This document shows, piece after piece, positions 17,491 to 31,989 of a stretch of DNA of 32,000 nt (positions are counted from its first letter, which is position 1; each line of letters opens with the position of its first letter). This DNA comes from Mycolicibacterium smegmatis (GTDB taxonomy: Bacteria; Actinomycetota; Actinomycetes; Mycobacteriales; Mycobacteriaceae), in contig NZ_LN831039.1 in the NCBI RefSeq assembly GCF_001457595.1, forward strand, positions 2,310,001 to 2,342,000, written 5' to 3'. The notes under the pieces are model-generated. The model did not search any database. It saw nothing but the letters and a program-made list of their open reading frames with translations, and had not been told where the DNA came from. The position numbers and the translations under genes are program-made.

Positions 17491-17817
17491 ATGGATGCGG
17501 ACCCGACGAGTGACGACGCCGCGAGTGACGGTGAGAAGCGACTGGTCATCAGGATCAACTCGAACGCCAAGATGTCGCGCGGCAAGGCCGCGGCGCACGC
17601 CGTCCACGCAGCGCTCAAGCTCTACGGCATCGAGTACGGGCATCCGGTCATCGTGATCGGCGGCAAACCACACGAAATCCTGGAACAGACGGTCCACGTG
17701 CGTGATGCAGGACGCACCGAACTCGAACCGGGCACCCTGACCGCGGGCGCGAGTTGGGAGTGGAAGCCGCGCGAGGATCCCGGCCAAGAGCCTGGCGAAA
17801 ACCCTGACGCGGACTAA
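17491..17817 (+). CDS. Short PTH2-like (peptidyl-tRNA hydrolase 2 fold) protein, 108 aa
   Basis: By eye, LVIRINSNAKMSRGKAAAHAVHAAL and VRDAGRTELEPGTLTAGA align with the two conserved PTH2 blocks (..GKGK.AAQ..HA.. and IRDAG.T.. PGT.T). The middle segment is shorter than in canonical PTH2. The gene lies 33 nt after the HelD stop on the same strand. Confidence 0.6.
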   Translation: MDADPTSDDAASDGEKRLVIRINSNAKMSRGKAAAHAVHAALKLYGIEYGHPVIVIGGKPHEILEQTVHVRDAGRTELEPGTLTAGASWEWKPREDPGQEPGENPDAD

Positions 17818-19190: not shown

Positions 19191-19210
19191 CGGGATGTCT
19201 CTCGTCGGAT

Positions 19211-20389
19211 TCAGGCAGTCGCGTAGCGGTTGGCGGGCCTGGGCAGGCCCAGCAGACCGCGTAGGGTCGTGGTGTCGTACCCGTCGCGGAAAGCACCGCG
19301 CCGCTGTAGTTCCGGCACCAGGCCGTCGGTGATCTGGCGCAGATCGTGGGGGAGTGTCGCCGGACGCAACCGCAACCCGCTGGCACCCGCGGCGTGCCAC
19401 TGTTGCACCAGGTCGGCCAGCTGCGCCGGTGTCCCCGCGAAGATCTCGGCGTCGCTGACGTATTCGGACCCGGCCACCTCGTCGAGCCGGTCCCGCCGGG
19501 CCTGCGCACCGGCCGCGGTGTCATCGAGGAAAACCACGACGTCGGCGAACACGCGGACGGGTTCGGTGTCGGCGGGCCGGTGCCCTGCGATGGTCTCGAC
19601 CAGCGACGTGACCTCCTGCGTGCTGTGCGGCGTGATGAAACCGACGTCGGCGCTCGTGGCGATCAGTCGGTACGCGGCGTCGACGTGGCCGAGCGCGGCC
19701 ACGACAGGCTGTCCCTGCGGCGGCCGCGGCGTGATGGACGGGCCCTTTACCGAGAAGTGTGGGCCGACGAAGTCGATGTAGTGCAGCTTGTCCCGGTCGA
19801 TGAACCGTCCGGTGGAGACGTCACGGATCTCGGCGTCGTCCTCCCACGAGTCCCACAGCCGGCGGAGCACCTCGACGTAGTCGGTGGCCTCGCCGAACAG
19901 TTCGGCGACCAGCGCGGCCCGGTCGTCGGGGAACTGCCTGCGCCCGAAGTGCGCCGCGGCGTCACGCCGTGACGACACCTGGACACGCACCCCGGCCCGC
20001 CCGGTGCTGACGTAGTCGAGCGTGGCCACGGCCTTGGAGATGTGGAAGGGCTCGGTGAACGTGGTGACCGCGGTCGGGATCAGCCCGATGTGGCGGGTGG
20101 TCGGTGCGACACGGGAGGCGATCAGGACCGCGTCGAGTCGCCCGCGGAGCCGGTCGGTGCGGTCGTCGGGCCGGAACGGGTGATCGGACTGCAGCGTGAG
20201 GCCGTCCTCGATGGTCACGAAGTCGATCAGGCCGTGTTCGGCCGCACCGATCAGATCTGTCCAGTAGCCCGCGCGCAGCACCTCGGCGGGCCGGGCATCG
20301 GGTTCACGCCACGACGCCGGATGCCATCCCGTGCCGTCCAGGGCCACGGCAAGGCGGGGCAGATGCGCAGGATCCGAAGGAGTAGCCAC
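19211..20389 (-). CDS. LLM-class flavin-dependent oxidoreductase, 392 aa, first gene of the two-gene LLM operon
   Basis: The luciferase-like pattern is LAVALDGTGWHPASWR...IDFVTIEDGL...RFIDRDKLHYIDFVGPHFSVKGPSITPRPPQGQPVV. GTG start at 20389. The gene ends 20 nt before the next LLM start. Confidence 0.85.
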   Translation of the reverse strand: MATPSDPAHLPRLAVALDGTGWHPASWREPDARPAEVLRAGYWTDLIGAAEHGLIDFVTIEDGLTLQSDHPFRPDDRTDRLRGRLDAVLIASRVAPTTRHIGLIPTAVTTFTEPFHISKAVATLDYVSTGRAGVRVQVSSRRDAAAHFGRRQFPDDRAALVAELFGEATDYVEVLRRLWDSWEDDAEIRDVSTGRFIDRDKLHYIDFVGPHFSVKGPSITPRPPQGQPVVAALGHVDAAYRLIATSADVGFITPHSTQEVTSLVETIAGHRPADTEPVRVFADVVVFLDDTAAGAQARRDRLDEVAGSEYVSDAEIFAGTPAQLADLVQQWHAAGASGLRLRPATLPHDLRQITDGLVPELQRRGAFRDGYDTTTLRGLLGLPRPANRYATA

Positions 20390-20754: not shown

Positions 20755-20823
20755 GATCTGGTGGTCCCCGACGTGCCGAGTGGGCACCGTGGGTGTGGGG
20801 CGGACGGTAAACTTGCCCGGCAA

Positions 20824-22128
20824 ATGGTCACGACAGGCCTCTCCGACGGCGAGCGGTTCACCGCCAAAGGGCGCGCCACGCGCGAACGCATCCTCCAGGC
20901 TGCGGCACAGGTGATCCTCGAAGAAGGGCTGTCCGCGCTCAGCCTTGACCGCGTCCGGCAGGTGGCCTCGGTCAGTGGATCGCAACTCAGCCACTACTTC
21001 ACCGACAAACGGGCCCTGGTGCGGGCGGTGCTCGAACGTCAGATGGGCCTCGTCCTGGACTTCCACCGCCAACCCGCCCTCGGCGGCCTTGACTCGTTCG
21101 ACGACTTCGAGCGCTGGCTCAACCTGACCGTCCGGCAGCTACGCAAGATCGGTTACACGGGCACGCCGACCTATCACGCGCTGGCCGGGCAGTTGGCCAA
21201 GTCCGACGCCGCGACGCGCGAGACGCTGGCCGCCGGCTACCGGGAGTGGATGGCGCTGCTCGAAGCCTCCTTCGAGCGCATGCGCGATCGCGGGCTGCTG
21301 GTGGCGACCGCCCGCCCTCGCGAACTCGCGATGGTCTTCGTCGCAGGTCATCAGGGCGCGGGCATGCTCACGTTCACCTACCGGCAGGAATGGCCGCTGA
21401 GCGACACGTTCAGGTTCATGGTGAACTACCTTCGCCTGTTCGCGACCGATCCGGCCGAGCGGGTCCCGCGCCCACCTCGCCCGGTGCGCGACCGGCGCGC
21501 ACGGTCGGTCGCCAACGACGGTGCCGCGCAACGATTCACGCGCAAAGGGCTCGCGACGCGCACCCGGATCATCGACGGTGCGGCGGACCTGATGTTCCGC
21601 AACGGCGTCCTGAGCACCAGCCTCGACGACGTCCGCCGGGAAGTGGGGGTCAGCGGTTCGCAACTGACGCACTACTTCGCCGACAAGTCGGATCTGATCC
21701 GGCAGGTCGTCGCGGCGCGCGCGGCCGAGGCGACCGCGCAACCCGAACTGGCCGGTCTGGACAGCATCGACGCGCTGCGGGAGTGGGCGAAAGCCTGTGG
21801 CCGCCAAGCGGAAACGGTGTACCTGCGCGGCGGTTGCATCTACGGGTCGCTCACCGGCGAGCTGCTCGAGCAGCGAGATGTCCTCGACGATCTCGCCGCG
21901 GGTTACGACCGGTGGTTGCAGTTGTTCCGGGACGGCGTCGACGTGATGTGCCGCAACGGTGAACTCGGTGAAGGGGTCGAGCCGCGGCATCTGGCGGTGG
22001 CGCTGCTCGCCGCGCATCAGGGCGGCACGATGGTGGCCTTCGCGATGGGCGACCGGGAACCCGTCGACGTGACGGTCGGTGCGGCGGTCGAGTACGTGGC
22101 GTCATTCGCGGCCGCCCGGGCGCGGTGA
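20824..22128 (+). CDS. Tandem (double) TetR-family regulator: two complete TetR units (HTH plus ligand domain) in one 434-aa chain
   Basis: Unit 1 starts RFTAKGRATRERILQAAAQVILEEGLSALSLDRVRQVASVSGSQLSHYFTDK (nt 20854). Unit 2 starts RFTRKGLATRTRIIDGAADLMFRNGVLSTSLDDVRREVGVSGSQLTHYFADK (nt 21532). The period is 226 aa. The C-terminal blocks LAAGY..W and HQG also recur in both units. Confidence 0.85.
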   Translation: MVTTGLSDGERFTAKGRATRERILQAAAQVILEEGLSALSLDRVRQVASVSGSQLSHYFTDKRALVRAVLERQMGLVLDFHRQPALGGLDSFDDFERWLNLTVRQLRKIGYTGTPTYHALAGQLAKSDAATRETLAAGYREWMALLEASFERMRDRGLLVATARPRELAMVFVAGHQGAGMLTFTYRQEWPLSDTFRFMVNYLRLFATDPAERVPRPPRPVRDRRARSVANDGAAQRFTRKGLATRTRIIDGAADLMFRNGVLSTSLDDVRREVGVSGSQLTHYFADKSDLIRQVVAARAAEATAQPELAGLDSIDALREWAKACGRQAETVYLRGGCIYGSLTGELLEQRDVLDDLAAGYDRWLQLFRDGVDVMCRNGELGEGVEPRHLAVALLAAHQGGTMVAFAMGDREPVDVTVGAAVEYVASFAAARAR

Positions 22129-22771: not shown

Positions 22772-23371
22772 ATGGCCGAGAACCGGCGCAGCGGCCGGTG
22801 GCGCACCGGTCAGCAGAACAAGCAGCGCATCCTCGACGCGGCGCGCGACCACTTCATGCGCAGTGGTTACGAGAAGGCGACGGTGCGCGGGATCGCCGCG
22901 GAAGCCGGCGTCGACGTGGCGATGGTCTACTACTTCTTCGGCAACAAGGAAGGCCTGTTCAACGCCGCGGTCCTCGACACCCCCGAGCATCCGCTGCACC
23001 AGCTCGCGGCGCTGCTCGACGACGGACCCGAGGAGATCGGCGCGCGGCTGGTGCGCGAGGTCATCCGGCGCTGGGACGAGGGCGGCTCATTCGACCTGCT
23101 GCTGACGGTGTTCAAGTCCGCCGACATCCATCCGCTGGCCCGCAAGCTGCTGCACGATTCGCTTGCCGGTCCGGTCGCGCAGCGCGTGGCCGCCGAGTTC
23201 GGCGTCGACGACGCCGAACTGCGCGTCGAGTTGGTGACCGTGCACATGGTCGGTCTGGCGTTCGCGCGGTACCAACTCAAGATCGAGCCGCTCGCCTCGG
23301 CGGGCCTCGACGATCTGGTGTCGTGGCTCGGCCCGACCGTGCAGCGCTATCTCACCGCTCCGGATCCCTGA
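22772..23371 (+). CDS. TetR-family transcriptional regulator
   Basis: 199 aa with the HTH region RILDAARDHFMRSGYEKATVRGIAAEAGVDVAMVYYFFGNKEGLF. It is divergent from the methyltransferase gene. Confidence 0.9.
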   Translation: MAENRRSGRWRTGQQNKQRILDAARDHFMRSGYEKATVRGIAAEAGVDVAMVYYFFGNKEGLFNAAVLDTPEHPLHQLAALLDDGPEEIGARLVREVIRRWDEGGSFDLLLTVFKSADIHPLARKLLHDSLAGPVAQRVAAEFGVDDAELRVELVTVHMVGLAFARYQLKIEPLASAGLDDLVSWLGPTVQRYLTAPDP

Positions 23372-24162
23372 GCCAGCGACCGTCTCAGTATCGCGACGAA
23401 CGGCCGGGGATCGGCATGGCCATTCGTCGCGATGCGGCGCCGGGAAGGCATCGAATCGCGTGACGCGCCGATCCATTCGTCGCGCGTGACCGTGTCCAGG
23501 CGCAGCCGACGGCCCGCGCGGTAGGCGAGCAGATGCAGCAGCAGCGTCCCGGTCCGCCCGTTGCCCTCGCGGAAGGGGTGGATTGCGTTGTACTCGGCGT
23601 AGATCCGTGCGAGCCGGAACGACAACGCACCGTCGTCGAGACCGCGTCCGTCACGCGCGAGCGCACAGATCTCTGCGTGCACCTCCGCGAGCCTGTGGCG
23701 TATCTGCGCGCACGGCCCGAAAGTCTGCTCGCCACGGCGGAGTTCGACGATGCGCGGCTGGCCGGCCCACGCATACACGTCGCCGAACACGTGCTGGTGC
23801 AGGTGGCACACGTCGAGGTCGTGCGTGTCGGGACGCATGTGGGCCTGCAGCATCCGGCCTGCGGTGGCCACGAACTCGACATGCGCCAGTGTCGGGGCGT
23901 GGGTGATCCCGAAGTTGTTGCGCAGCACGGACGTACCGGGGATGAAGTACGGTCTGCGCCGCGCGAACACCGGTCGCCGGCGTGGGTTCGGCGTGCGGCG
24001 GGGGAGATGGGCCGCGAGGTATTCGCCGAATGTCACCGTGCCGCCCAGCAGTTCGGTGAGCGCCGATATCTGCTCGTCGGCCGGCTGCCAGCCCTCGAGG
24101 CGTTCGGCCGCGATGGTCTGGGCCAGGGCGTGGCGTGCGTCGACGCGGAGTTCGGCTACCAC
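23347..24162 (-). CDS. Class-II Fic-domain protein with an N-terminal VbhA-like inhibitory helix
   Basis: The Fic motif reads HPFREGNGRTGT. The N-terminal ELRVDARHALAQTIAAERLEGW resembles the VbhA/alpha-inh element [S/T]xxxE[G/N]. GTG start at 24162 lies 1 nt after the TAG stop (24156-24158) of the upstream gene. The track ORF extension to 24360 was rejected. Confidence 0.82.
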   Translation of the reverse strand: MVAELRVDARHALAQTIAAERLEGWQPADEQISALTELLGGTVTFGEYLAAHLPRRTPNPRRRPVFARRRPYFIPGTSVLRNNFGITHAPTLAHVEFVATAGRMLQAHMRPDTHDLDVCHLHQHVFGDVYAWAGQPRIVELRRGEQTFGPCAQIRHRLAEVHAEICALARDGRGLDDGALSFRLARIYAEYNAIHPFREGNGRTGTLLLHLLAYRAGRRLRLDTVTRDEWIGASRDSMPSRRRIATNGHADPRPFVAILRRSLAQGSGAVR

Positions 24163-25157
24163 GGTGAGAACGTCGAGGTCGACGCCAGGTAGTCGAGTTT
24201 GCGCTGCAGACCGCTGACGTCGCGCCCGATGCTGCGCAGTGCGGTGCGGTCCTGGGGCGAGAATGCCGACATCGCGACGTGATCGGTGATCTCGCCGCCG
24301 GAAGACGTGATCTGGTCGGCGCGCGTGCGCCACCGGATGCTCGACCCGATGGCGTGACACCGCGTCAGAACGGCCGCGTCCTCGTCGTCGAGAAAGCGGC
24401 CACCGGCCGCGTCGTGGATCCGGTCGGGCGTACCGCGTTCAGAGGATCCGCAGCACAGCGCGGCCCACCGCGCGATGCGCACCACGGGGTCGATCGTCGC
24501 GGCCTTGAGGTCGACGGCGGTGTCGCGAGTGGCGAGCACCCGCAACCGCGACGGCACATGGGCCCGTAGGTACGTCGCGTCCTGCAGCATCGCCGCGAGC
24601 GCGTCGGGATGGTCGCCGACGGCCGTGCGAGCCCGGGCCGCCAAATCCGGCCCGTCGGTGAGCGGGAACGCATCGGCGAGCAGTCCGATCATCACCACAC
24701 CGCGGTCGGCGGCGGCGTCACCGGCCCAGCGGGCGATGCCGTCCTCCCACTGCGACGCCGAGCGGTTGAACCGCGCACGGGCCGCGGTGACCCCTTTCTC
24801 GTCGCCCGGGATCCCGCACGCGCTCAACAGGTCGTGCACCTCGAGCGCGTGGTGCAAGGCCGCGTCGACCGGTGTGCCCTCGTCGCGCACGAACAGGGTG
24901 TCGAGATCGGATCCGGGCAGTGCCTCACCGCGGCCCACGCTGCCCGAGGCGTACCACGTGCCTGGCGCGGGGCCGGTGACCCGCGCGGCGGTGCGCAGTG
25001 CCGCGCGCAGCAGCGCCGACCACGCCTGTGCCACCGTCGCGGCACGCGCGCCGACGAGTTCGCGCGCAGCCGCGGGCAGTTCGGCCGTGGCGGCGCGCAG
25101 ACCGGCCACCGAGGTCGCCGCGTCGATGTGGCGCTGCACGAGGTCGGGGGCGGGCAT
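24156..25157 (-). CDS. Stand-alone DUF294-type (GlnD/GlnE-like, pol-beta superfamily) nucleotidyltransferase with DUF294_C-like substrate-binding domain
   Basis: 333 aa. The pol-beta NTase signature is ASGSVGRGEALPGSDLDTLFV (G-S-x10-D-x-D). The helical C-terminal half carries the ...RIARWAAL...TPDRI... pattern. No cNMP or CBS sensor domains are present. Confidence 0.75.
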   Translation of the reverse strand: MPAPDLVQRHIDAATSVAGLRAATAELPAAARELVGARAATVAQAWSALLRAALRTAARVTGPAPGTWYASGSVGRGEALPGSDLDTLFVRDEGTPVDAALHHALEVHDLLSACGIPGDEKGVTAARARFNRSASQWEDGIARWAGDAAADRGVVMIGLLADAFPLTDGPDLAARARTAVGDHPDALAAMLQDATYLRAHVPSRLRVLATRDTAVDLKAATIDPVVRIARWAALCCGSSERGTPDRIHDAAGGRFLDDEDAAVLTRCHAIGSSIRWRTRADQITSSGGEITDHVAMSAFSPQDRTALRSIGRDVSGLQRKLDYLASTSTFSPW

Positions 25158-25269
25158 ACCGGCGATTGTGACAGGCCCACGGGCGGTGAGGGTTCTGCAA
25201 CCGAATGCTTACCGACGGCTACATGAACGAAACATTCGGGTGACGCCGAGGACACGCGCCCATTGTTAT

Positions 25270-25283
25270 CTGTCATCTGACAG
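25270..25283. promoter_or_regulatory. Palindrome CTGTCA-tc-TGACAG in the divergent NTase/permease intergenic region; a third TGACAGG copy lies at 25169-25175
   Basis: Read directly. It lies 42 nt upstream of the permease ATG. Function is unknown; it could be an operator or part of a leader structure. Confidence 0.3.
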
Positions 25284-25324
25284 GTAAGAGCTGGCGGCAG
25301 CGCCCCTAGCCAGAGAGAAAACCC

Positions 25325-26866
25325 ATGACCAGCAGCGCAACAGCACCGGGACCCGACGTGGCCGACCCGTCCGGCGACCACCGCGACCTCGCGGAGTTCG
25401 GTTACGACCAACAACTGCATCGCCGGCTCGGCCGGTTCGAGTCGTTCGCCGCGGGGTTCTCCTTCGTGTCGATCCTGACGACGATCTTCCAGTTGTTCGG
25501 TCTGGGCTTCGGCTTCGGCGGGCCCGCCTTCTTCTGGACCTGGCCCGCGGTGTTCGTGGGGCAGTTCCTCGTCGCCCTGTGTTTCGCCGAACTCGCCGCG
25601 CGTTACCCGATCTCGGGCGCCATCTACCAGTGGTCGCGACGCATGGGCGGTGAGGTGATCGGCTGGTTCGGGGGCTGGTTCGTGATCCTCGCCCAGATCG
25701 TCACCGCATCGGCCGCCGCGATCGCCCTGCAGGTGGTGCTCCCGACGATCTGGCCGGGATTCCAGATCATCGGCGACGACCCGGCCCTCACCTCGGCCAG
25801 CGGCGCCACCAACGCGGTGCTGCTCGGCACCGTCCTGCTGGTGGTCACGACCACCATCAACTGCCTTGGCGTCAAATGGATGTCACGCGTCAACAGCGCA
25901 GGTGTGGTGTGCGAGATCGTCGGCGTCATCGCGGTCATCGGCGTGTTCTTCACGCACGCCCAGCGCGGTCCGCAGGTCGTGTTCGACACCGGCCACGCCG
26001 GCGGGCAACCCGGCTACATCTGGGCCTGGATCGTGTCGGGCCTGATGGCCGCCTACGTCATGGTGGGCTTCGGTTCGGCGGGCGAACTCGCCGAGGAGAC
26101 CCGCAACCCGCGCCGGGTGGCGCCACGCACCATCCGCCTGGCGCTTTCGGTGTCCGCGCTCGGCGGTGGCCTGATGATCCTCGGGGCGCTCATGGCCGCA
26201 CCGAGCCTCACCGACGGCCGGTTGGCCACCGAGGGCCTGCCGTATGTGCTCGACACCGTGCTGTCCTCGCCGTGGGGCACCGTCCTGCTCATCGACGTGT
26301 GCATCGCGATCACCATCTGCACGTTGGCAATTCAGACCGCGGCCTCACGGCTGATGTTCTCGATGGCCCGCGACGGCCGGCTGCCCGCCTCGGCGATCCT
26401 GGCAAAGGTCAACGGCCGCACCGGAACCCCGATCTGGCCGTCGGTGCTGATCGGCGTGCTGTGCATCGCGGTGCTGCTGGTCAACGTGGGCAACTCCGCG
26501 ATCTTCGCGACCCTGGCCAGCGTGTGCATCATCCTGATCTACCTGGCGTACCTGATGGTCACCGCGCCTCTGCTGTACCGCAGGTTCAAAGGCTGGCCCG
26601 CACAACGCAACCAGGTCGACGCCGAAGGACTGCCGCTGTTCTCGCTCGGCAGGTTCGGCATCGTGGTCAACGTGCTCGCGGTGCTGTACGGCGCCGTGAT
26701 GATCGTCAACCTTGGCTGGCCGCGAGCCGAGATCTTCAACCCCACCGGGGAATACCCCGTCCTGCAGTGGGCGGGCCCGCTGAGCATCGCCGCCACGGTG
26801 CTGCTCGGTGCGCTGTGCTTCCCGCGCGGCAAGACACATCCGAAACCCGTCACGATCGGAGCCTGA
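25325..26866 (+). CDS. APC-superfamily amino acid/polyamine-type permease
   Basis: 513 aa with about 12 hydrophobic segments. The N-terminal block FSFVSILTTIFQLFGLGFGFGGPAFFW and AELAARYPISGAIYQW are typical APC signatures. Confidence 0.9.
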   Translation: MTSSATAPGPDVADPSGDHRDLAEFGYDQQLHRRLGRFESFAAGFSFVSILTTIFQLFGLGFGFGGPAFFWTWPAVFVGQFLVALCFAELAARYPISGAIYQWSRRMGGEVIGWFGGWFVILAQIVTASAAAIALQVVLPTIWPGFQIIGDDPALTSASGATNAVLLGTVLLVVTTTINCLGVKWMSRVNSAGVVCEIVGVIAVIGVFFTHAQRGPQVVFDTGHAGGQPGYIWAWIVSGLMAAYVMVGFGSAGELAEETRNPRRVAPRTIRLALSVSALGGGLMILGALMAAPSLTDGRLATEGLPYVLDTVLSSPWGTVLLIDVCIAITICTLAIQTAASRLMFSMARDGRLPASAILAKVNGRTGTPIWPSVLIGVLCIAVLLVNVGNSAIFATLASVCIILIYLAYLMVTAPLLYRRFKGWPAQRNQVDAEGLPLFSLGRFGIVVNVLAVLYGAVMIVNLGWPRAEIFNPTGEYPVLQWAGPLSIAATVLLGALCFPRGKTHPKPVTIGA

Positions 26867-26868
26867 TC

Positions 26869-27711
26869 ATGTCTGTGACCACAGCCGCCACGGCTACCAC
26901 GGCAGGCGCGCGCGCCCACGCCCGCGCCCAGGCCGGAACCATCACCGACTCGATGCCCGTCGTCCCGGCGTCACGCTGGCCCAACCCGCCCGCCGGCGTG
27001 GCCGCCGAGAATCTGACCTGGGCCGAGACCGTCCCGGGCGGCCGGTACACCACCAAGGTGCTCGCACGCGGCACACGACTACGCCTGCGGGACCTGACCG
27101 GTACGGCGTGCGCGCACCTGCTGCTCTGGCGCGCCGACGCCCCGTGGGAACGACTCAACGTCGCCGACACCGTGAAAGTACCCTGGCAGGCCTACCTTTC
27201 GACAGGGCACCCACTGCTCAGCGATCAGGGCCGGGTGCTGGCCACCATCGAGTCGGACACCTCGGGTCACCACGACGCGCTGTGCGGCACCACGACCCTG
27301 GCGGGCAACACCGCGAAGTACGGCGCGGGCAGTGCCGAATCGGCAAGTCCCGCAGGGCGCGAACTGCTGGCCCTCGCCGCGCTCAAGAACGGCCTCACCC
27401 GCCGTGACGTCGCACCCAGCGTGTCGTTCTTCCACGGCATCTGGGTCGACGGCGACGGCGCGCTGGTGTCCACCGGTTCCGCGGGCGCCGACACCGCAGT
27501 CGAACTCATCCTTCACCTGCCGCTGATCGTGGCCATCGCCAACACGGCCCACCCGCTGGATCCGGCCCCCGAGTTCGAGGTCGGGTCCCTGGAGGTCCTC
27601 GCATGGCGTGCCCAGGAGGACCTCGCCGGGATCGGGGCGTCGCTGCACGACCGCGATCCCGAATACCAACGCGCGTACCTCAATTCCGAAGACGTCTGGA
27701 GTGCCCGATGA
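26869..27711 (+). CDS. DUF1989 protein (urea-carboxylase-associated family; carboxyguanidine-deiminase-type subunit)
   Basis: ATG 26869 lies 2 nt after the permease stop. Its paralogy to the next gene and its context with the carboxylase and allophanate hydrolase support the call. The upstream part of the track ORF (25876-26868) was rejected. Confidence 0.8.
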   Translation: MSVTTAATATTAGARAHARAQAGTITDSMPVVPASRWPNPPAGVAAENLTWAETVPGGRYTTKVLARGTRLRLRDLTGTACAHLLLWRADAPWERLNVADTVKVPWQAYLSTGHPLLSDQGRVLATIESDTSGHHDALCGTTTLAGNTAKYGAGSAESASPAGRELLALAALKNGLTRRDVAPSVSFFHGIWVDGDGALVSTGSAGADTAVELILHLPLIVAIANTAHPLDPAPEFEVGSLEVLAWRAQEDLAGIGASLHDRDPEYQRAYLNSEDVWSAR

Positions 27712-28331
27712 CCACCACGTTCGAAGCTCAGATCATCGCCGACGAGACCGTCGCGCCCCGCGCGCCGTGGTCGAAGATCGTGCGGGCGGGGGACGTGCTC
27801 ACCATCGTCGACCTGCACGGAAATCAGGCCGTCGACACGTTGTTCTACGGTGCCGACGACCACGGCATCCGCTACAGCGCCCCGGCCACGATCGCCGCAC
27901 AGGGCAACATCTTCCTGACCACGGGCACGGTGCTGCGCGACAGCGACGGTGCGCCGATGCTGACGATCATCGACGACGAGGTGGGCAACCACGACACCCT
28001 CGGCGGCGCGTGCTCGCAGGAGTCCAACACCCTGCGCTACGGACACCACACCAAACACCAGCACGCGTGCGTCGAGAACTTCATCGGCGAAGGCGCGCGG
28101 TGGGGCCTGACGAAGGCCGACATCGTCAGCAACATCAACTTCTTCATGAACGTCCCGGTGGATCCCGACGGTTCGCTGGGCATCGTCGACGGCCTGTCGG
28201 CGCCTGGCAAGAAACTGTCGCTGCGCGCCGAGATCGACACGCTGGTGCTGATCTCCAACTGCCCGCAGATCAACAACCCGTGCAACGGTTTCGACCCCAC
28301 CGCGGTGCGCATGGTGGTGACCCGGGGATGA
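27708..28331 (+). CDS. DUF1989 protein (urea-carboxylase-associated family, second subunit)
   Basis: ATGA overlaps occur at both ends (27708-27711 and 28328-28331). The blocks DLHGNQAVDTLFY, HDTLGGACS and NCPQINNPCNG are typical of this family. Confidence 0.82.
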   Translation: MTTTFEAQIIADETVAPRAPWSKIVRAGDVLTIVDLHGNQAVDTLFYGADDHGIRYSAPATIAAQGNIFLTTGTVLRDSDGAPMLTIIDDEVGNHDTLGGACSQESNTLRYGHHTKHQHACVENFIGEGARWGLTKADIVSNINFFMNVPVDPDGSLGIVDGLSAPGKKLSLRAEIDTLVLISNCPQINNPCNGFDPTAVRMVVTRG

Positions 28332-30322
28332 GGACAGCGGAGGTCCTCAGGCCCGGCATGGCCACCACGATCCAGGACTGGCCGGGCCGGATCGGGTACT
28401 GGCAGGTCGGCGTCCCGCCGTCCGGGCCCATGGACGACGTGTCGTTCCGGCTCGCCAACATCGCCGTCGGCAACCCCGAGGGTGCACCCGCCCTGGAGGC
28501 CACGATGGGTGGCCCGGCACTGCGGTTCGACACCGACACCTGGGTGTGCGTCACCGGCGCGCCCGCGCCGGTGAGCATCGACGGCACCAGAGTGCCCCAG
28601 TGGCAACCGGTTCTGGTGCAGGCAGGCCAACTGCTCGACGTCGGCATGGTCGCCGGACCCGGACTGCGGATCTACCTCGCCGTCGCAGGCGGCCTGCACG
28701 CCGACGAATACCTCGGCAGCGCAGCCACCTTCACCCTCGGCGGCTTCGGGGGACACCAGGGACGGGTGCTCGGCGCGGGCGACAAACTCGAGATCACCGA
28801 CAACCTGACCGGAACACGCAGGCGCATCCTGTCCGACGAGCAACCGGCGATCACCTCGCACTGGAACATCGCCGTCACCGTGGGCCCGCACTCGGCGCCG
28901 GAGTTCTTCACACCGGCCGACATCGACACCGTGCTGGGGCACGACTACGAGGTGCACTTCAACTCCGACCGCACCGGCGTGCGCCTGATCGGGCCCAAGC
29001 CCGAATGGGCGCGGCCCGACGGAGGCGAGGCCGGGCTGCACCCGTCGAACATCCACGACAACGCCTACTCGGTCGGCTCGCTCGACTTCACCGGAGACAC
29101 ACCGATTCTGCTCGGCCCCGACGGGCCCAGCCTGGGCGGCTTCGTCTGCCCGGTGACCGTCACCTCCGCCGACCGCTGGAAGCTGGGCCAACTCGCCCCG
29201 GGCGCCACCGTGCGATTCGTCGCGGTCCGCGAGGCCGCCGCGGCGCCTGCCGACACCGTGACACGCGCGCGACGCGCCTACCTGCCCGCGGTGTTCTCCA
29301 CCGGCGGTGACACCGACAACGGGATCCTCGGCCACACCACCTCGTCGGACGGCACCGTCGATGTGACGTACCGGCGCACCGGCGACGACAACGTGCTGGT
29401 CGAATACGGCGAGATGCGACTCGATCTCGCGCTGCGCGCACGGGTACACGCCCTGCACCACGCGCTGGAGAACCACCGGCCCGACGGTCTGATCGACCTG
29501 ACGCCCGGGGTGCGCTCACTGCAGGTGAAGGTGGACCCGGTGCGCCTGCCGGTCTCGGCACTCGTGCCGTTGCTCACCGAGATCGAGGCGTCCCTGCCGG
29601 CGGCACAGGAGCTCGTCGTGCCCAGCCGCACGGTCCGCCTGCCCCTGAGCTGGGACGACCCCGCCACGCGCGAGGCCATCGAACGTTACATGCACGGTGT
29701 GCGCGCCGACGCGCCGTGGTGCCCGTGGAACATCGAGTTCATCCGGCGCATGAACGGGCTGGCGTCGGTCGACGACGTCCACCGGATCGTCTACGACGCC
29801 GAGTATCTGGTGCTCGGGCTGGGTGATGTCTACCTCGGTGCGCCGGTCGCGACGCCCCTGGACCCGCGGCACCGGCTGGTCACCACCAAGTACAACCCGG
29901 CCCGCACCTGGACCCCGGAGAACGCGGTCGGCATCGGCGGCGCCTACCTGTGCATCTACGGCATGGAGGGCCCGGGCGGCTACCAGTTCGTCGGCCGCAC
30001 CACCCAGATCTGGAATCACCGCCACCCGCTGCCCGCGCACGGCTTCGAGCCCGAACATCCGTGGCTGCTACGCTTTTTCGACCGCATCAGCTGGTATCCC
30101 GTCTCGGCGGAAGAACTGCTGGACCTGCGTGCCGACATGGCGGCGGGCCGCGGCCACGTCGACATCACCGACGGGGTGTTCGCGCTCGCCGAGCACGACG
30201 CGTTCCTCGCCGAGAACGCCGACGACATCGCCGCGACGCGCGCGACAATGGAAGCCGCGCGCGCCGAGGAACGTCAACGCTGGTCGGACGCAGGAGAATT
30301 CGCACGAAAGGAATCCGCGTGA
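28328..30322 (+). CDS. Urea/guanidine carboxylase carboxyltransferase component (KipA/AHS2-like plus KipI/AHS1-like domains only). No biotin carboxylase or BCCP domain.
   Basis: 664 aa. The N-terminus LRPGMATTIQDWPGRIGYWQVGVPPSGPMD is AHS2/PxpC-like. The middle VDVTYRRTGDDNVLVEYGEMRLDL is AHS1/PxpB-like. The protein ends where the BCCP linker of full-length urea carboxylases begins. No ATP-grasp motif or AMKM biotinylation motif occurs anywhere in the ORF. Confidence 0.82.
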   Translation: MRTAEVLRPGMATTIQDWPGRIGYWQVGVPPSGPMDDVSFRLANIAVGNPEGAPALEATMGGPALRFDTDTWVCVTGAPAPVSIDGTRVPQWQPVLVQAGQLLDVGMVAGPGLRIYLAVAGGLHADEYLGSAATFTLGGFGGHQGRVLGAGDKLEITDNLTGTRRRILSDEQPAITSHWNIAVTVGPHSAPEFFTPADIDTVLGHDYEVHFNSDRTGVRLIGPKPEWARPDGGEAGLHPSNIHDNAYSVGSLDFTGDTPILLGPDGPSLGGFVCPVTVTSADRWKLGQLAPGATVRFVAVREAAAAPADTVTRARRAYLPAVFSTGGDTDNGILGHTTSSDGTVDVTYRRTGDDNVLVEYGEMRLDLALRARVHALHHALENHRPDGLIDLTPGVRSLQVKVDPVRLPVSALVPLLTEIEASLPAAQELVVPSRTVRLPLSWDDPATREAIERYMHGVRADAPWCPWNIEFIRRMNGLASVDDVHRIVYDAEYLVLGLGDVYLGAPVATPLDPRHRLVTTKYNPARTWTPENAVGIGGAYLCIYGMEGPGGYQFVGRTTQIWNHRHPLPAHGFEPEHPWLLRFFDRISWYPVSAEELLDLRADMAAGRGHVDITDGVFALAEHDAFLAENADDIAATRATMEAARAEERQRWSDAGEFARKESA

Positions 30323-31989
30323 CGGGCAAGATCGACGAGATCTACCGCAGGATCGAGCAGAGCGGCCGGTCCGAGGTGTTCATCCACCTGCGGCCGCAGG
30401 ACCAGGTGGAGGCCGACCACGCGTCCGCCACGAGTGGCCCGCTGGCCGGTCTGGTGCTCGCGGTCAAGGACAACGTCGACGTCGCCGGACTGCCCACCAC
30501 CGCGGCCTGTCCGGGATACAGCTTCGTGCCCGACACCGACGCCCCCGTCGTGGCCGTCCTGAAGGCCGCGGGCGCTGTCGTCATCGGCAAGACCAACCTC
30601 GACCAGTTCGCCACCGGCCTCGTCGGAACCCGCAGCCCCTACGGCCCGGTACGCAACGCCCAACGTCCCGAATACATCTCGGGCGGTTCGAGTTCCGGGT
30701 CGGCCGTTGCGGTCGCACTCGGCTTCGCCGACATCGCGATCGGCACCGACACCGCAGGCTCCGGGCGTGTGCCCGCCGGACTGCAGGGCATCGTCGGTAT
30801 CAAGCCGACCCTCGGCGTGGTCCCGAACACCGGTGTGGTGCCCGCGTGCGCGAGCTATGACTGCGTGACGATCTTCGCCGCCGACCTGCCGACCGCACAG
30901 GCCGCGATGGGTGTCATGGCCACCGCCGAACCGCACCGCGCGTGGCCCGCCGATCTCATGTTGGCCGCGCCGCCTGCGCCCAGGGTCGCGGTGCCCGCGC
31001 AGGTGCCCGAACTCGACGTGGCGTGGCAGGCTGCGTTCACCGAGGCGGTGCAGCGCGCGCAGGCCGCCGGGTTCGAAACCGTGCCCATCGACATGACGCC
31101 GTTCTTCGCCGCGGCGGACCTGCTGTACAACGGGGCACTCGTGGCCGAACGATGGGACGCCGTCGGCGAATTCATCGAAAGCGCCGGGCCGGGCGCCGGG
31201 CTGGACCCGACCGTGTCGGCGATCATCAGCGCCGCGGGCAGGCACTCGGCCGCCGACCTGCTGCGCGACCGTCGCCGCGTCGAGCACCTCCGCGACGAGG
31301 CGTTCGCAGCCCTCGCGGGATGCGATGCGCTGTTGGTGCCCACCGCGCCCGAGCATCCGCGTATTGCCGACGTCGCCGCCGACCCGATCGGGGTGAACGC
31401 GCGCATGGGGCGGTTCACCAATTTCTGCAACCTGTTCGACATGTGTGCCATCGCGATCCCGGCGGGCACCACCTCCGACGGCGCGCAGTTCGGCATCACG
31501 CTGCTGGCGCCGGCGTTCGGTGATGCCGTCGTCGCCGATCTCGCGGCGCGTTTCCTCGCTGTGCCCGCCGCGGCGTCGTGGGCTGAGGCCGCCACGGAGG
31601 TCACCGAGATCGCCGTGTTCGGAGCGCATCTGCGTGGGCAACCGCTGGAGCACGAGCTCACCGGACGCGGTGCGCGCTGGGGCGGGCCGGTGGTCACCGC
31701 GCCGCACTACCGGCTGTTCGCCCTCGACACCGAGCCCCCCAAACCGGGCCTGGTGCGCGTCGACAGCGACGGATCCGCGATCGAGGGGGAGCGGTGGGTG
31801 CTCTCACCCGCGGCACTCGGTGAGTTCCTCGCCGAACTGCCCGCCCCGATGCTGCTCGGCAAGGTCGAGTTGAGCGACGGCCGTTGGGTGACGGGTTTCG
31901 GCTGCGACCATGCCGCGCCTGCACACGGCCGCGACATCACGGAGTTCGGCGGGTGGCTCCGGGCCCAGTCGGCCCTTTCGGCTCGATAG
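30319..31989 (+). CDS. Allophanate hydrolase (amidase-signature family with AH C-terminal domain)
   Basis: GTGA overlap with the upstream stop. The amidase signature is LAVKDNVDVAGLPTTA...GGSSSGSAVAVALGFADIAIGTDTAGSGRVPA. The C-terminal domain reads IAVFGAHLRGQPL...GKVELSDGRWVTGF. Stop TAG at 31987-31989. Confidence 0.92.
   Translation: MTGKIDEIYRRIEQSGRSEVFIHLRPQDQVEADHASATSGPLAGLVLAVKDNVDVAGLPTTAACPGYSFVPDTDAPVVAVLKAAGAVVIGKTNLDQFATGLVGTRSPYGPVRNAQRPEYISGGSSSGSAVAVALGFADIAIGTDTAGSGRVPAGLQGIVGIKPTLGVVPNTGVVPACASYDCVTIFAADLPTAQAAMGVMATAEPHRAWPADLMLAAPPAPRVAVPAQVPELDVAWQAAFTEAVQRAQAAGFETVPIDMTPFFAAADLLYNGALVAERWDAVGEFIESAGPGAGLDPTVSAIISAAGRHSAADLLRDRRRVEHLRDEAFAALAGCDALLVPTAPEHPRIADVAADPIGVNARMGRFTNFCNLFDMCAIAIPAGTTSDGAQFGITLLAPAFGDAVVADLAARFLAVPAAASWAEAATEVTEIAVFGAHLRGQPLEHELTGRGARWGGPVVTAPHYRLFALDTEPPKPGLVRVDSDGSAIEGERWVLSPAALGEFLAELPAPMLLGKVELSDGRWVTGFGCDHAAPAHGRDITEFGGWLRAQSALSAR

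What the first reader, a model, noticed from the sequence alone, without database searches (positions are those of the whole stretch)
23347..25157. Coupled operon of a sensor-less DUF294 nucleotidyltransferase and a class-II Fic protein with non-canonical inhibitory and catalytic motifs
Two different nucleotidyl-transfer folds are encoded back to back. The NTase stop TAG (24156-24158) lies 1 nt from the Fic GTG (24162).

The DUF294 enzyme has the pol-beta G-S-x10-D-x-D signature. It lacks the cNMP/CBS sensor domains that usually precede this domain.

The Fic protein carries an N-terminal VbhA-like inhibitory helix, but its motif reads AERLEG (Ala where Ser/Thr is expected). Its active-site motif reads HPFREGNGRTGT, so the final Arg of HxFx(D/E)GNGRxxR is replaced by Thr. 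Together these features suggest an atypical donor or activity, or regulation of one enzyme by the other.

The operon is transcribed divergently from a nitrogen-releasing guanidine/urea-type operon. GlnD/GlnE-like nucleotidylylation is the classical mode of nitrogen control. A post-translational switch acting on that pathway is an attractive, purely speculative, possibility. A toxin-antitoxin-like or defence role is an alternative. I know of no description of this gene pair.
Basis: partly seen in the sequence, partly recalled or inferred. Interest (0 to 1): 0.7.

Follow-up and report, generated by a model that had tools for sequence, protein, structure and literature searches.

The report
Nitrogen-operon-linked nucleotidyltransferase–Fic enzyme pair
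Two overlapping genes for a GlnE/DrrA-like nucleotidyltransferase and an unusual self-inhibited Fic enzyme form a conserved, undescribed pair. In many Mycobacteriales it sits beside, or in one operon with, the GlnR/AmtR-controlled nitrogen-scavenging permease operon, so it most likely switches a protein of that pathway on and off by adding and removing a nucleotide.

Summary
The NTase (24156-25157, minus strand) has DUF294 and DUF294_C domains, an intact GS-x10-DxD motif and no sensor domain. The Fic gene (23347-24162, minus strand) starts at a GTG that overlaps the NTase stop. Its protein carries a fused VbhA-like N-terminal module (AERLEG) and the motif HPFREGNGRTGT.

These deviations are family-wide: Glu23, His195 and the first Arg are invariant, and the second Arg is never present.

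- **Pair conservation.** It is found in Mycolicibacterium, Aldersonia, Antrihabitans, Dietzia, Gordonia, Rhodococcus and Corynebacterium. Fic follows the NTase in 40 of 55 metagenomic NTase loci.
- **Link to the permease operon.** The pair is nearly always divergent from, or at the 3' end of, the 'urea-carboxylase-system' permease operon. In M. smegmatis that operon is GlnR-activated and AmtR-repressed. Matches to both published operator motifs lie in the window's intergenic region.
- **Link to amtR.** In Rhodococcus the order is CBS-NTase, Fic, AmtR, HIT, each with a 4-nt overlap.
- **Alternative partner.** Where Fic is missing, an RNase T-like exonuclease usually abuts the NTase instead, and the two never occur together.

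Best reading: a post-translational nucleotidylylation module for this pathway, with the NTase as writer and Fic as probable eraser. A toxin-antitoxin or defence role is unlikely. The target and the chemistry are untested.

The parts
24156..25157 (-). Sensor-less DUF294 + DUF294_C nucleotidyltransferase, 333 aa
   Evidence: Pfam DUF294 4e-20 and DUF294_C 3e-27. AlphaFold pLDDT 94.5. Best PDB fold matches are the DrrA AMPylation domain and both GlnE domains.
24900..24944 (-). NTase catalytic signature G72-S73-x10-D84-x-D86
   Evidence: Read directly from the sequence. G72, S73 and D84 are invariant and position 86 is always Asp or Glu in 92 homologues.
24156..24162 (-). GTGGTAG overlap: the Fic GTG start lies inside the end of the NTase gene, just before its TAG stop (translational coupling)
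   Evidence: Orthologous loci show 4-nt or 7-nt overlaps.
23347..24162 (-). Fic protein, 271 aa: VbhA-like N-terminal module, flexible linker, then a VbhT/FicT-type Fic core
   Evidence: Pfam Fic 5e-14. NCBIfam VbhT-like and EcFic-like hits fall far below the equivalog cut-offs. PDB VbhT 4.6e-21. AlphaFold pLDDT 87.6 with a low-confidence linker between about residues 55 and 80 (residues 68-78 below 50). Foldseek best match is VbhT.
24091..24108 (-). Inhibitory-helix motif A19-E-R-L-E23-G24, followed by an invariant Trp25
   Evidence: E23, G24 and W25 are invariant in 90 sequences. All NTase-linked Fic proteins have A/V-x3-E-G.
23545..23580 (-). Fic active-site motif H195-PFREGNGR203-TG-T206, with the second Arg replaced by Thr
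   Evidence: H195, N201 and R203 are invariant. The last position is T, A, N or M in every NTase-linked Fic, against R in 62 of 86 motif instances across all sampled loci.
25218..25234 (+). Match to the GlnR binding motif (GCTACATGAACGAAACA = Gn2AC-n6-GnAACA) in the NTase/permease intergenic region
   Evidence: It is the only match in the 32-kb window. The same position carries a match in L001-L003. The motif and the GlnR ChIP peak between MSMEG_2183 and MSMEG_2184 come from PMC3662644.
25266..25287 (+). AmtR-operator-like palindrome TTATCTGTCA-TC-TGACAGGTAA, 38-59 nt upstream of the permease ATG
   Evidence: The core CTGTC...GA.AG is conserved in all 7 aligned intergenic regions. It matches the actinomycete AmtR consensus TAtCTGTCa-n2-cGACAGATAT quoted in PMC8864220.
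25325..26866 (+). APC-family 'urea carboxylase system' permease, first gene of the divergent operon
   Evidence: Pfam AA_permease_2 9e-41. Source names appear. It is 97% identical to the M. goodii orthologue.
26863..31989 (+). Rest of the operon: DUF1989 (about 26863-27711), DUF1989 (27708-28331), carboxyltransferase CT_A_B + CT_C_D (about 28328-30322), allophanate hydrolase (30319-31989)
   Evidence: Pfam. The gene order matches msmeg_2184-2189 as described in PMC4222082. Start positions are inferred from ATGA overlaps.

Best explanation
The two genes encode a co-translated, co-evolving regulatory module. It is an accessory of the actinobacterial GlnR-activated, AmtR-repressed nitrogen-scavenging operon (permease, two DUF1989 proteins, carboxyltransferase, allophanate hydrolase).

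The NTase is a GlnE/DrrA-type protein nucleotidylyltransferase and acts as the writer. It attaches an NMP to a protein of this circuit. Candidate targets, in order, are the repressor AmtR or its partner, then the permease, then a pathway enzyme.

The Fic protein is a VbhT-type Fic domain whose antitoxin-like helix is permanently fused to it. It keeps the catalytic His, the first Arg and the helix Glu, but has lost the second Arg, which binds the gamma-phosphate of ATP. It therefore most likely works as the eraser, hydrolysing the NMP-protein bond as the Fic-1-AntF complex and Glu-engaged FICD do.

Shown here: domain identities, conservation of catalytic residues, conservation of the pair, and linkage to the operon and to amtR. 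Inferred: that the substrate is a protein, the writer/eraser polarity, and the identity of the target.
For: **NTase looks like a protein-modifying enzyme.**
- Its only significant PDB fold matches are protein AMPylators: DrrA (E 6e-8, TM 0.65) and the GlnE N- and C-terminal domains.
- Its catalytic residues are invariant.

**Fic keeps its catalytic core.**
- His195, Asn201, Arg203 and Glu23 are invariant over 90 sequences at about 50% identity.
- Loss of the second Arg marks the whole NTase-linked clade.

**Published biochemistry fits an eraser.**
- In Fic-1-AntF the second Arg (R146) is the Fic-1 residue that contacts the antitoxin Ser24 and Glu28. The Glu is required for deAMPylation. An R146E mutant deAMPylates without the antitoxin (PMC13327609).
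- In FICD the deAMPylation-competent Glu is held by the first Arg, which is retained here (PMC9994480).

**Genomic linkage.**
- The NTase-Fic pair is divergent from the permease operon in the window, L001-3, L083, L081, L082 and L012.
- In Gordonia L008 the pair follows the operon on the same strand.
- In Rhodococcus L087, CBS-NTase, Fic, AmtR and HIT follow one another with 4-nt overlaps.
- In C. variabile L088 the order is NTase, Fic, AmtR-like TetR.
- In Rhodococcus L159 the order is CBS-NTase then AmtR, with no Fic.
- Among metagenomic NTase loci, 40 of 55 have Fic downstream and 41 of 53 have the permease upstream.

**An alternative partner suggests a removal function.**
- Fic and an RNase T-like exonuclease are mutually exclusive neighbours of the NTase 3' end. 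The exonuclease is present in 10 of 15 Fic-less loci and in none of the Fic-containing loci.
- Both enzyme types could release a 5'-NMP from a phosphodiester bond (inference).

**Regulatory context.**
- Matches to the GlnR and AmtR operator motifs lie in the shared intergenic region.
- M. smegmatis AmtR did not respond to urea or amino acids in vitro (PMC4222082).
- In C. glutamicum, AmtR is released by adenylylated GlnK.
- A COG2905/RNase T-type gene is co-fit with an adjacent transporter in fitness data (bioRxiv 072470).

**Co-evolution.** The NTase and Fic diverge fastest and in step within the synteny block.
Against: - No biochemical data exist for any member of either family, and no target has been identified.
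- Patient cells carrying FICD R374H, a mutation of the second Arg, show more AMPylated BiP, not less (PMC9994480). Loss of this Arg could therefore loosen auto-inhibition rather than create an eraser.
- The exonuclease partner is convergent, not co-operonic, in 9 of 10 loci. It could equally point to a nucleic-acid substrate for the NTase.
- Fic persists without the NTase and permease in L005 and L010, so it has or had some independent role.
- Comparing permeases from loci with and without the pair showed no distinguishing residue.
- Many orthologous operons work with AmtR alone.
Confidence: 0.5

Rival explanations
1. Signalling cascade with Fic as the effector. The NTase senses nitrogen or energy state (through CBS in Rhodococcus) and nucleotidylylates Fic itself, for example on its inhibitory module or on Tyr48. 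This relieves or enforces auto-inhibition. Fic then AMPylates the real target, which could be AmtR, the permease or a FicT-type target such as GyrB/ParE. The logic resembles GlnD acting on PII and then GlnE, or MntA acting on HepT.
For: - Translational coupling and matched evolutionary rates suggest a physical partnership.
- The Fic catalytic core is intact.
- Loss of the second Arg removes the salt-bridge partner of the inhibitory Glu, and FICD R374H cells accumulate AMPylated BiP.
- MNT-type NTases that AMPylate their partner toxin appear as weak fold matches (7bxo, 6m6u).
- Fic survives alone in L005 and L010.
Against: - The NTase occurs without Fic far more often than the reverse: 15 of 55 metagenomic loci, plus L159 where the NTase directly precedes AmtR. 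This makes the NTase, not Fic, the constant element.
- The Glu and first Arg needed for deAMPylation are invariant, while the gamma-phosphate-binding Arg is lost.
- Replacement of Fic by an exonuclease does not fit an AMPylating effector.
Confidence: 0.2
2. The NTase acts on nucleic acid, for example by 3' tailing of the operon mRNA or an antisense RNA. The partner, either the RNase T-like exonuclease or Fic, modulates that activity, so the module controls expression of the permease operon post-transcriptionally.
For: - An RNase T (DEDD) exonuclease is the alternative partner.
- DUF294 genes are reported next to dnaQ-like genes elsewhere (PMC3412718).
- Price et al. speculate that the COG2905/RNase T gene is needed for expression of an adjacent symporter.
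Against: - No RNA-specific NTase appears among the significant fold matches. The significant ones are protein AMPylators, followed by aminoglycoside NTases.
- Fic domains are known as protein-modifying enzymes (established knowledge of the family).
- Rfam finds no structured RNA in the window.
Confidence: 0.12
3. A toxin-antitoxin-like or anti-phage defence module. A FicT-type toxin is held in check by its fused antitoxin helix and by the NTase, and its position next to the nitrogen operon is incidental.
For: - The closest characterised relatives are the FicT/VbhT toxins.
- There is a strong hit to the PADLOC candidate family PDC-S04 (E 5e-45).
- The two genes evolve fast.
- Classical two-gene VbhA/VbhT modules exist in related actinomycetes (L038).
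Against: - The chromosomal neighbourhood is stable across at least seven genera and always next to the same metabolic operon or amtR.
- No integrase, transposase or other defence gene lies adjacent.
- The NTase has no PADLOC hit.
- The PDC-S04 match covers only the generic Fic core.
Confidence: 0.08

Closest known systems
VbhT-VbhA, EcFicT-FicA and Fic-1-AntF (class I Fic toxin-antitoxin modules)
   Same: The Fic core is closest to VbhT in sequence and fold (PDB VbhT E 4.6e-21; Foldseek TM 0.83 on the target). An inhibitory helix carries an E-G motif. [quoted passage not shown]
   Different: The antitoxin module is fused to the N-terminus rather than encoded by a separate gene. The second Arg of the motif is absent in the whole clade. 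Ser/Thr is replaced by Ala. The protein is paired with an NTase and embedded in a metabolic operon neighbourhood. It scores far below the NCBIfam equivalog cut-offs (89.8 against 800; 88.4 against 181).
FICD/HYPE and EfFic (bifunctional AMPylase/deAMPylase Fic enzymes)
   Same: The inhibitory Glu sits on the same polypeptide. The Glu plus the first Arg and the His are the deAMPylation residues, and all are retained.
   Different: FICD keeps the second Arg, performs both reactions itself, and switches through its oligomeric state. Here a separate NTase-fold enzyme is proposed to do the writing.
GlnE (glutamine synthetase adenylyltransferase), GlnD, and Legionella DrrA with SidD
   Same: The NTase fold plus a helical substrate-binding domain gives the best structural matches. 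The logic is nitrogen-linked reversible protein nucleotidylylation. DrrA/SidD sets the precedent of a writer and an eraser from different enzyme families.
   Different: There is no sequence-level membership in the GlnE or GlnD families. The eraser would be a Fic domain rather than a second NTase domain, an HD domain or a PP2C-like enzyme. The target is unknown.
Canonical COG2905 proteins (cNMP-binding + CBS + DUF294 + DUF294_C), usually next to a DnaQ/RNase T-like exonuclease
   Same: The same catalytic and C-terminal domains are present. Related loci show the exonuclease partner. A transporter gene lies adjacent.
   Different: The window protein lacks all sensor domains, and Fic takes the place of the exonuclease.
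AmtR / GlnK-AMP control of nitrogen genes in Corynebacterium glutamicum
   Same: The same repressor family and the same target operon type are involved. A nucleotidylylated protein is the signal that releases AmtR.
   Different: There GlnD adenylylates GlnK. Here a dedicated NTase-Fic pair is encoded at the locus, and no link to GlnK has been shown.

Membership tests
Fic/Fido AMPylating Fic domain | Pfam Fic domain above the gathering score | tested here: met
   PF02661 scores 53.4 bits against 24.
Fic/Fido AMPylating Fic domain | Complete motif HxFx(D/E)GNGRxxR, including the second Arg | tested here: not met
   The motif is HPFREGNGRTGT. The last position is T, A, N or M in all NTase-linked relatives.
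Class II Fic (inhibitory helix N-terminal on the same chain) | [S/T]xxxE[G/N] motif on a helix N-terminal to the Fic core in the same polypeptide | tested here: inconclusive
   The topology is met: helix 7-21 leads into the motif at residues 19-24, with pLDDT about 98. E-G is invariant. Ser/Thr is Ala, or Val in Dietzia. By homology the module is VbhA-like, which is class I.
VbhA antitoxin family (PF18495) | HMM score above the gathering cut-off | tested here: not met
   The window protein scores 16.6 bits against 25.9. Orthologues score 23.3 and 22.6 bits, also below the cut-off. Precomputed hits are recorded for some homologues.
VbhT / EcFic equivalogs (NCBIfam NF045983, NF007672) | Score above the curated equivalog cut-off | tested here: not met
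   89.8 against 800, and 88.4 against 181.
Type II toxin-antitoxin system | Separate antitoxin gene, toxicity of the toxin alone, variable or mobile genomic context | tested here: not met
   The antitoxin-like module is fused. The context is conserved and metabolic across genera. Toxicity cannot be tested here.
PADLOC candidate defence family PDC-S04 | HMM match together with a defence-island context | tested here: inconclusive
   The HMM match is E 5e-45 over the Fic core. No defence genes are nearby. The synteny is metabolic.
DUF294 nucleotidyltransferase (PF03445 + PF10335) | Both domains above the gathering score; GS...DxD pol-beta signature | tested here: met
   72.5 against 21 and 95.7 against 22.5 bits. 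The signature is invariant.
Canonical COG2905 architecture | N-terminal cNMP-binding and/or CBS sensor domains | tested here: not met
   None are found in the window protein. A CBS domain is present in the Rhodococcus orthologue (29.2 against 24 bits).
GlnE/GlnD/DrrA protein nucleotidylyltransferases | Fold similarity across the NTase and helical domains | tested here: met
   Foldseek gives DrrA 6e-8, GlnE N-domain 4.5e-7 and GlnE C-domain 1.2e-5, with TMq 0.58-0.65.
GlnE/GlnD/DrrA protein nucleotidylyltransferases | Demonstrated transfer of NMP to a protein side chain | not testable with these tools
   This needs an in vitro assay with labelled NTPs and mass spectrometry.

The most novel reading that the evidence does not exclude
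A dedicated writer/eraser pair built from two unrelated nucleotidyl-transfer folds. A GlnE/DrrA-like NTase nucleotidylylates the repressor AmtR (or the permease), and a Fic domain with a permanently engaged Glu and no second Arg acts purely as the de-nucleotidylylase. This would be the first housekeeping bacterial Fic dedicated to erasing a mark made by a non-Fic enzyme. It could also supply the missing signal input for AmtR in GlnR-containing actinomycetes.
Probability: 0.25. Interest if true: 0.8.

Novelty: new variant of a known kind. Interest (0 to 1): 0.62.

Why it matters
- **Function for two poorly understood families.** It would assign a physiological role to DUF294 (COG2905), a widespread family with no known function, and to a clade of chromosomal Fic proteins that are otherwise filed as toxins or defence candidates.
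- **A candidate input for AmtR.** In M. smegmatis the published tests found no ligand for AmtR. A locus-encoded nucleotidylylation module is a concrete, testable candidate for the signal.
- **A natural test of Fic mechanism.** It would show that fusing the inhibitory Glu and deleting the second Arg converts a Fic AMPylase into a dedicated deAMPylase. This extends the recent Fic-1-AntF and FICD mechanisms.
- **Annotation.** Fic genes in this context should not be annotated as toxins.

Tried and rejected
- **Riboswitch control.** An Rfam scan of the whole window found no guanidine or other riboswitch. Riboswitch control of the neighbouring operon was therefore dropped.
- **Promoters and terminators.** The E. 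coli-type scan found nothing in 23000-25500. This is uninformative for a high-GC actinomycete.
- **PDB sequence search.** The search with the NTase found nothing.
- **Target residues in the permease.** Permeases from loci with and without the pair were compared for a lineage-specific Tyr or Thr that might be the target. Nothing discriminating appeared.
- **M. smegmatis MSMEG_2183.** I tried to learn whether this 'conserved hypothetical' gene, which sits on the other side of the GlnR peak, is the NTase orthologue. No M. smegmatis sequence was retrievable. The nearest large mycobacterial genome sampled (L084) has AmtR at that position instead. This remains unresolved.
- **Window TetR as AmtR.** The TetR convergent with Fic (22772-23371) was tested. 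Its best PDB match is 2np3, and AmtR aligns only over the HTH region, so it is not AmtR.
- **Defence role.** This was considered because of the PADLOC PDC-S04 hit and rejected on context.
- **Ala as a partner of the lost Arg.** The Ala at the Ser/Thr position was considered as a specific co-variation with loss of the second Arg. This is only partly tenable, because a Saccharothrix antitoxin has Asn there while the second Arg is retained.


Full report
**1. The observation**

The window is high-GC actinobacterial DNA. Its genes are closest to Mycolicibacterium; the permease is 97% identical to that of M. goodii.

*The NTase gene.* On the minus strand, ORF 24156..25157 encodes a 333-aa protein. 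It matches Pfam DUF294 (E 4e-20) and DUF294_C (E 3e-27) and nothing else above threshold. No cNMP or CBS domain is found. The pol-beta signature G72-S73-x10-D84-L-D86 is encoded at 24900..24944.

*The Fic gene.* The next gene starts at the GTG at 24162-24160, and the NTase TAG is at 24158-24156. The minus-strand text reads GTGGTAG, so the two frames overlap by 7 nt. Homologues of about 270 aa that all begin 'MV' support this start rather than the upstream GTG at 24360.

The 271-aa product matches Pfam Fic (E 5e-14). It matches VbhA only weakly: 16.6 bits against a cut-off of 25.9. Two orthologues reach E 6.5e-5 and 1.1e-4. AERLEG is residues 19-24 and HPFREGNGRTGT is residues 195-206. VbhT has HPFREGNGRTLR at the aligned position.

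**2. The deviations are family traits, not decay**

A protein search found 507 Fic relatives and 234 NTase relatives at E <= 1e-5. Those that carry a source name are almost all from Mycobacteriales.

- In a 90-sequence Fic alignment (mean column identity 56%), E23, G24, W25, H195, P196, F197, R198, G200, N201, G202, R203 and G205 are invariant. The final motif position is never Arg.
- In the 92-sequence NTase alignment, G72, S73, D84 and D162 are invariant. Position 86 is always Asp or Glu.

Both active sites are thus under purifying selection.

I then surveyed 86 Fic motifs in the loci fetched up to that point. The last position is Arg in 62. It is T, A, N or M in every Fic that sits next to this NTase. 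All of these Fic proteins have A-x3-E-G except the Dietzia one, which has V-x3-E-G.

A Saccharothrix locus (L038) shows the classical arrangement. A separate VbhA-like ORF (...NVRLEG...) is followed, after a stop codon, by a Fic gene with HPFREGNGRAQR. The window protein is therefore best described as a class-I module whose antitoxin has become fused. It is class II only by topology.

**3. Structures**

*NTase.* The AlphaFold model is confident (pLDDT 94.5, pTM 0.92). The only PDB matches with E < 1e-3 are protein AMPylators:

| Match | E-value | TMq |
|---|---|---|
| Legionella DrrA bound to Rab8a | 6e-8 | 0.65 |
| GlnE N-terminal domain | 4.5e-7 | 0.64 |
| GlnE C-terminal domain (chains B / A) | 1.2e-5 / 1.5e-5 | 0.58 / 0.62 |

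Aminoglycoside NTases and MntA-type minimal NTases follow only at E >= 0.01. No RNA-specific NTase is significant.

*Fic.* The model has pLDDT 87.6. It shows a very confident N-terminal helical module (residues 10-50, about 98), a poorly confident linker between about residues 55 and 80 (residues 68-78 below 50), and a confident Fic core. The best matches are VbhT, Bartonella Bep Fic domains, EcFicT and the 'Fic-1-AntF deAMPylase' complex 8wt0.

**4. Is the pair conserved?**

*Fic-centred view.* Among the 12 loci closest to the window Fic, eight have the NTase immediately upstream: L001-3, L006-9 and L012 (Dietzia, where Fic is only 36% identical). L011 is cut off at its 5' end and cannot be scored. 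L004, L005 and L010 lack the NTase.

*NTase-centred view.* Of 55 metagenomic NTase loci with at least 400 nt of downstream sequence, 40 have Fic directly downstream.

*Named genomes.* Look-ups add M. goodii, Aldersonia kunmingensis, Antrihabitans, Rhodococcus sp. MTM3W5.2 and Corynebacterium variabile.

*Rates.* Within the synteny block the two genes diverge fastest and in step:

| Comparison | NTase % identity | Fic % identity | Operon genes % identity |
|---|---|---|---|
| M. goodii (L083) | 77 | 77 | 86-97 |
| L001 | 58 | 70 | 75-92 |
| Aldersonia (L081) | 47 | 52 | 68-84 |
| Dietzia (L012) | 42 | 36 | 57-79 |

**5. What the pair is attached to**

*The neighbouring operon.* The divergent operon encodes an APC permease (named 'urea carboxylase system permease' by some sources), two DUF1989 proteins, a CT_A_B + CT_C_D carboxyltransferase and an allophanate hydrolase. 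This matches the M. smegmatis msmeg_2184-2189 cluster in gene content and order. That cluster is induced by nitrogen starvation through GlnR and repressed by the TetR-type regulator AmtR. A GlnR ChIP-seq peak lies between MSMEG_2183 and MSMEG_2184 (PMC3662644, PMC4222082).

*Operator motifs in the window.*
- The published GlnR motif Gn2AC-n6-GnAACA has a single match in all 32 kb, at 25218-25234, inside the 167-bp NTase/permease spacer. About 0.64 matches are expected by chance in the whole window. The same position carries a match in L001-3.
- At 25266-25287 a palindrome TTATCTGTCA-TC-TGACAGGTAA is conserved in all seven aligned intergenic regions. It fits the actinomycete AmtR consensus TAtCTGTCa-n2-cGACAGATAT.

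*Arrangements next to the permease gene.*

| Arrangement | Loci |
|---|---|
| NTase then Fic, divergent from the permease | window, L001-3, L083, L081, L082, L012 |
| NTase then Fic at the 3' end of the operon, same strand | Gordonia L008 |
| CBS-NTase, Fic, AmtR, HIT, each with a 4-nt overlap | Rhodococcus L087 (AmtR against PDB 5e57: E 4.5e-67) |
| NTase, Fic, AmtR-like TetR | C. variabile L088 |
| CBS-NTase then AmtR, no Fic | Rhodococcus L159 |
| AmtR alone | L084, L089, L090, L091, L158 |

*A second Mycobacterium lineage.* In L006, L007 and L009 only a 50%-identical paralogous permease accompanies the pair. In the syntenic loci L005 and L010 the permease and the NTase are missing together, while Fic remains.

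*Overall count.* 41 of 53 metagenomic NTase loci with enough upstream sequence have the permease divergently upstream.

The NTase is thus the constant companion of the permease and amtR. Fic is a frequent add-on.

**6. An alternative partner**

Ten of the 15 Fic-less metagenomic NTase loci carry an RNase T-family DEDD exonuclease abutting the NTase 3' end (PF00929, above the gathering score). It is convergent in nine loci and co-directional in L094. This exonuclease is absent from the window and from every Fic-containing locus.

DUF294 genes next to dnaQ-like genes have been noted before (PMC3412718). In fitness data a COG2905/RNase T-type gene is co-fit with an adjacent symporter (bioRxiv 072470).

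The mutual exclusion suggests that Fic and the exonuclease fill the same slot. Both chemistries can release a 5'-NMP from a phosphodiester bond. This last step is inference.

**7. Mechanism**

*What published work shows.*
- The second Arg of Fic-1 (R146) is the Fic-1 residue that contacts antitoxin Ser24 and Glu28.
- The R146E mutant deAMPylates without the antitoxin (PMC13327609).
- In FICD the deAMPylation-competent Glu234 is held by the first Arg (R371) (PMC9994480).

*How the window Fic compares.* It has the Glu fused in place, keeps His195 and the first Arg, and lacks the Arg that binds the ATP gamma-phosphate. Loss of that Arg also removes the reason to keep the Ser/Thr.

*Proposal.* The NTase, a GlnE/DrrA-like writer, nucleotidylylates a protein of the AmtR/permease circuit, and Fic removes the mark. 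AmtR is the most attractive target, for three reasons. It is encoded directly after Fic in Rhodococcus (4-nt overlaps) and on the same strand 43 nt downstream in Corynebacterium. The ligands tested on M. smegmatis AmtR had no effect. The C. glutamicum orthologue is controlled by an adenylylated protein, GlnK-AMP.

*Counter-evidence.*
- Patient cells with FICD R374H accumulate AMPylated BiP. Loss of the second Arg may therefore unleash AMPylation rather than abolish it.
- The exonuclease partner could instead mean a nucleic-acid substrate.
- Nothing has been tested biochemically.

*Confidence.* I put about 0.5 on the general model of a nitrogen-operon-linked nucleotidylylation switch with the NTase as the core. 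I put about 0.25 on the specific version in which the NTase writes on AmtR or the permease and Fic erases.

**8. Rivals**

- A cascade with Fic as the effector: 0.2.
- An RNA-directed NTase: 0.12.
- A toxin-antitoxin or defence module: 0.08. The PADLOC PDC-S04 hit (E 5e-45) covers only the generic Fic core. The conserved metabolic synteny and the absence of mobile or defence genes nearby argue against this reading.

**9. Novelty**

Full-text searches for DUF294, COG2905, PF03445, PF10335, and for Fic together with AmtR, found no description of this pair. Each enzyme family is known. New here are their pairing, the antitoxin-fused Fic clade that lacks the second Arg, its linkage to the AmtR operon, and the Fic/exonuclease alternation. 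I rate it a new variant of a known kind, with interest 0.62.

Noticed in passing
window 28328-30322; L088 1-3378: The operon's 'urea carboxylase' is only the carboxyltransferase part (CT_A_B + CT_C_D, about 663 aa), with no biotin carboxylase or BCCP domain. The same holds in all the Mycobacteriales loci seen except C. variabile, which has a full-length 1227-aa enzyme nearby. The biotin-carrying partner must be encoded elsewhere. A 2026 PNAS paper (PMC13012033) on the binding of MSMEG_0435-0436 to the AccA3 complex may be relevant.
   Followed up: no
window 25218-25234 and 25266-25287: Matches to the GlnR motif and to the AmtR operator palindrome lie in the 167-bp spacer shared by the NTase-Fic operon and the permease operon. 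A further conserved block, TGTCACAATC, sits just upstream of the NTase ATG and may be a -10 element for a leaderless transcript.
   Followed up: partly
L094, L106, L122, L129, L130, L134-136, L145, L152 (for example L106 4962-5543, minus strand): An RNase T-family DEDD exonuclease abuts the 3' end of the sensor-less NTase wherever Fic is absent, and it never co-occurs with Fic.
   Followed up: partly
L087 1406-1828 (minus strand): A HIT-family hydrolase is the last gene of the Rhodococcus NTase-Fic-AmtR operon, with a 4-nt overlap. HIT enzymes cleave nucleotide-phosphoramidate and related bonds, so this is a further hint of nucleotidylylation chemistry.
   Followed up: no
L008 8910-10394 (plus strand): In the Gordonia MAG, a MASE7 + adenylate/guanylate cyclase gene directly follows Fic on the same strand.
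   Followed up: no
window 23347-23371: The 3' ends of Fic and of a convergent TetR gene (22772-23371, TetR_C_16 type, not AmtR) overlap by 25 nt. The same TetR + PEMT neighbourhood is conserved in M. goodii, L001 and L003 (L002 keeps only the TetR).
   Followed up: partly
window 20761-22128: A 455-aa protein carries two complete TetR units in tandem (TetR_N twice, plus TetR_C_13 and TetR_C_13_2).
   Followed up: no
L014, L015, L019, L024, L045, L051, L025: Other FicT-like proteins outside this clade also lack the second Arg. Examples are HPFREGNGRTQL in several Pseudomonadota MAGs (for example Rhizobiales and other Alphaproteobacteria) and a fused Tsukamurella protein with ...SSK. Loss of this residue is therefore recurrent in the family.
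   Followed up: no
window 24156-25157 and 23347-24162 compared with L083: The NTase and Fic are each 77% identical to the M. goodii orthologues, while the adjacent permease is 97% and the other operon genes 86-93%. The cause of this fast, matched divergence is unexplained.
   Followed up: partly
window 17814-19400 and 19211-20389 (minus strand): Two luciferase-like monooxygenase ORFs overlap by about 190 nt as listed, so the start of the downstream gene (17814-19400) is probably mis-set. The pair is also conserved in L001, L002 and M. goodii.
   Followed up: no
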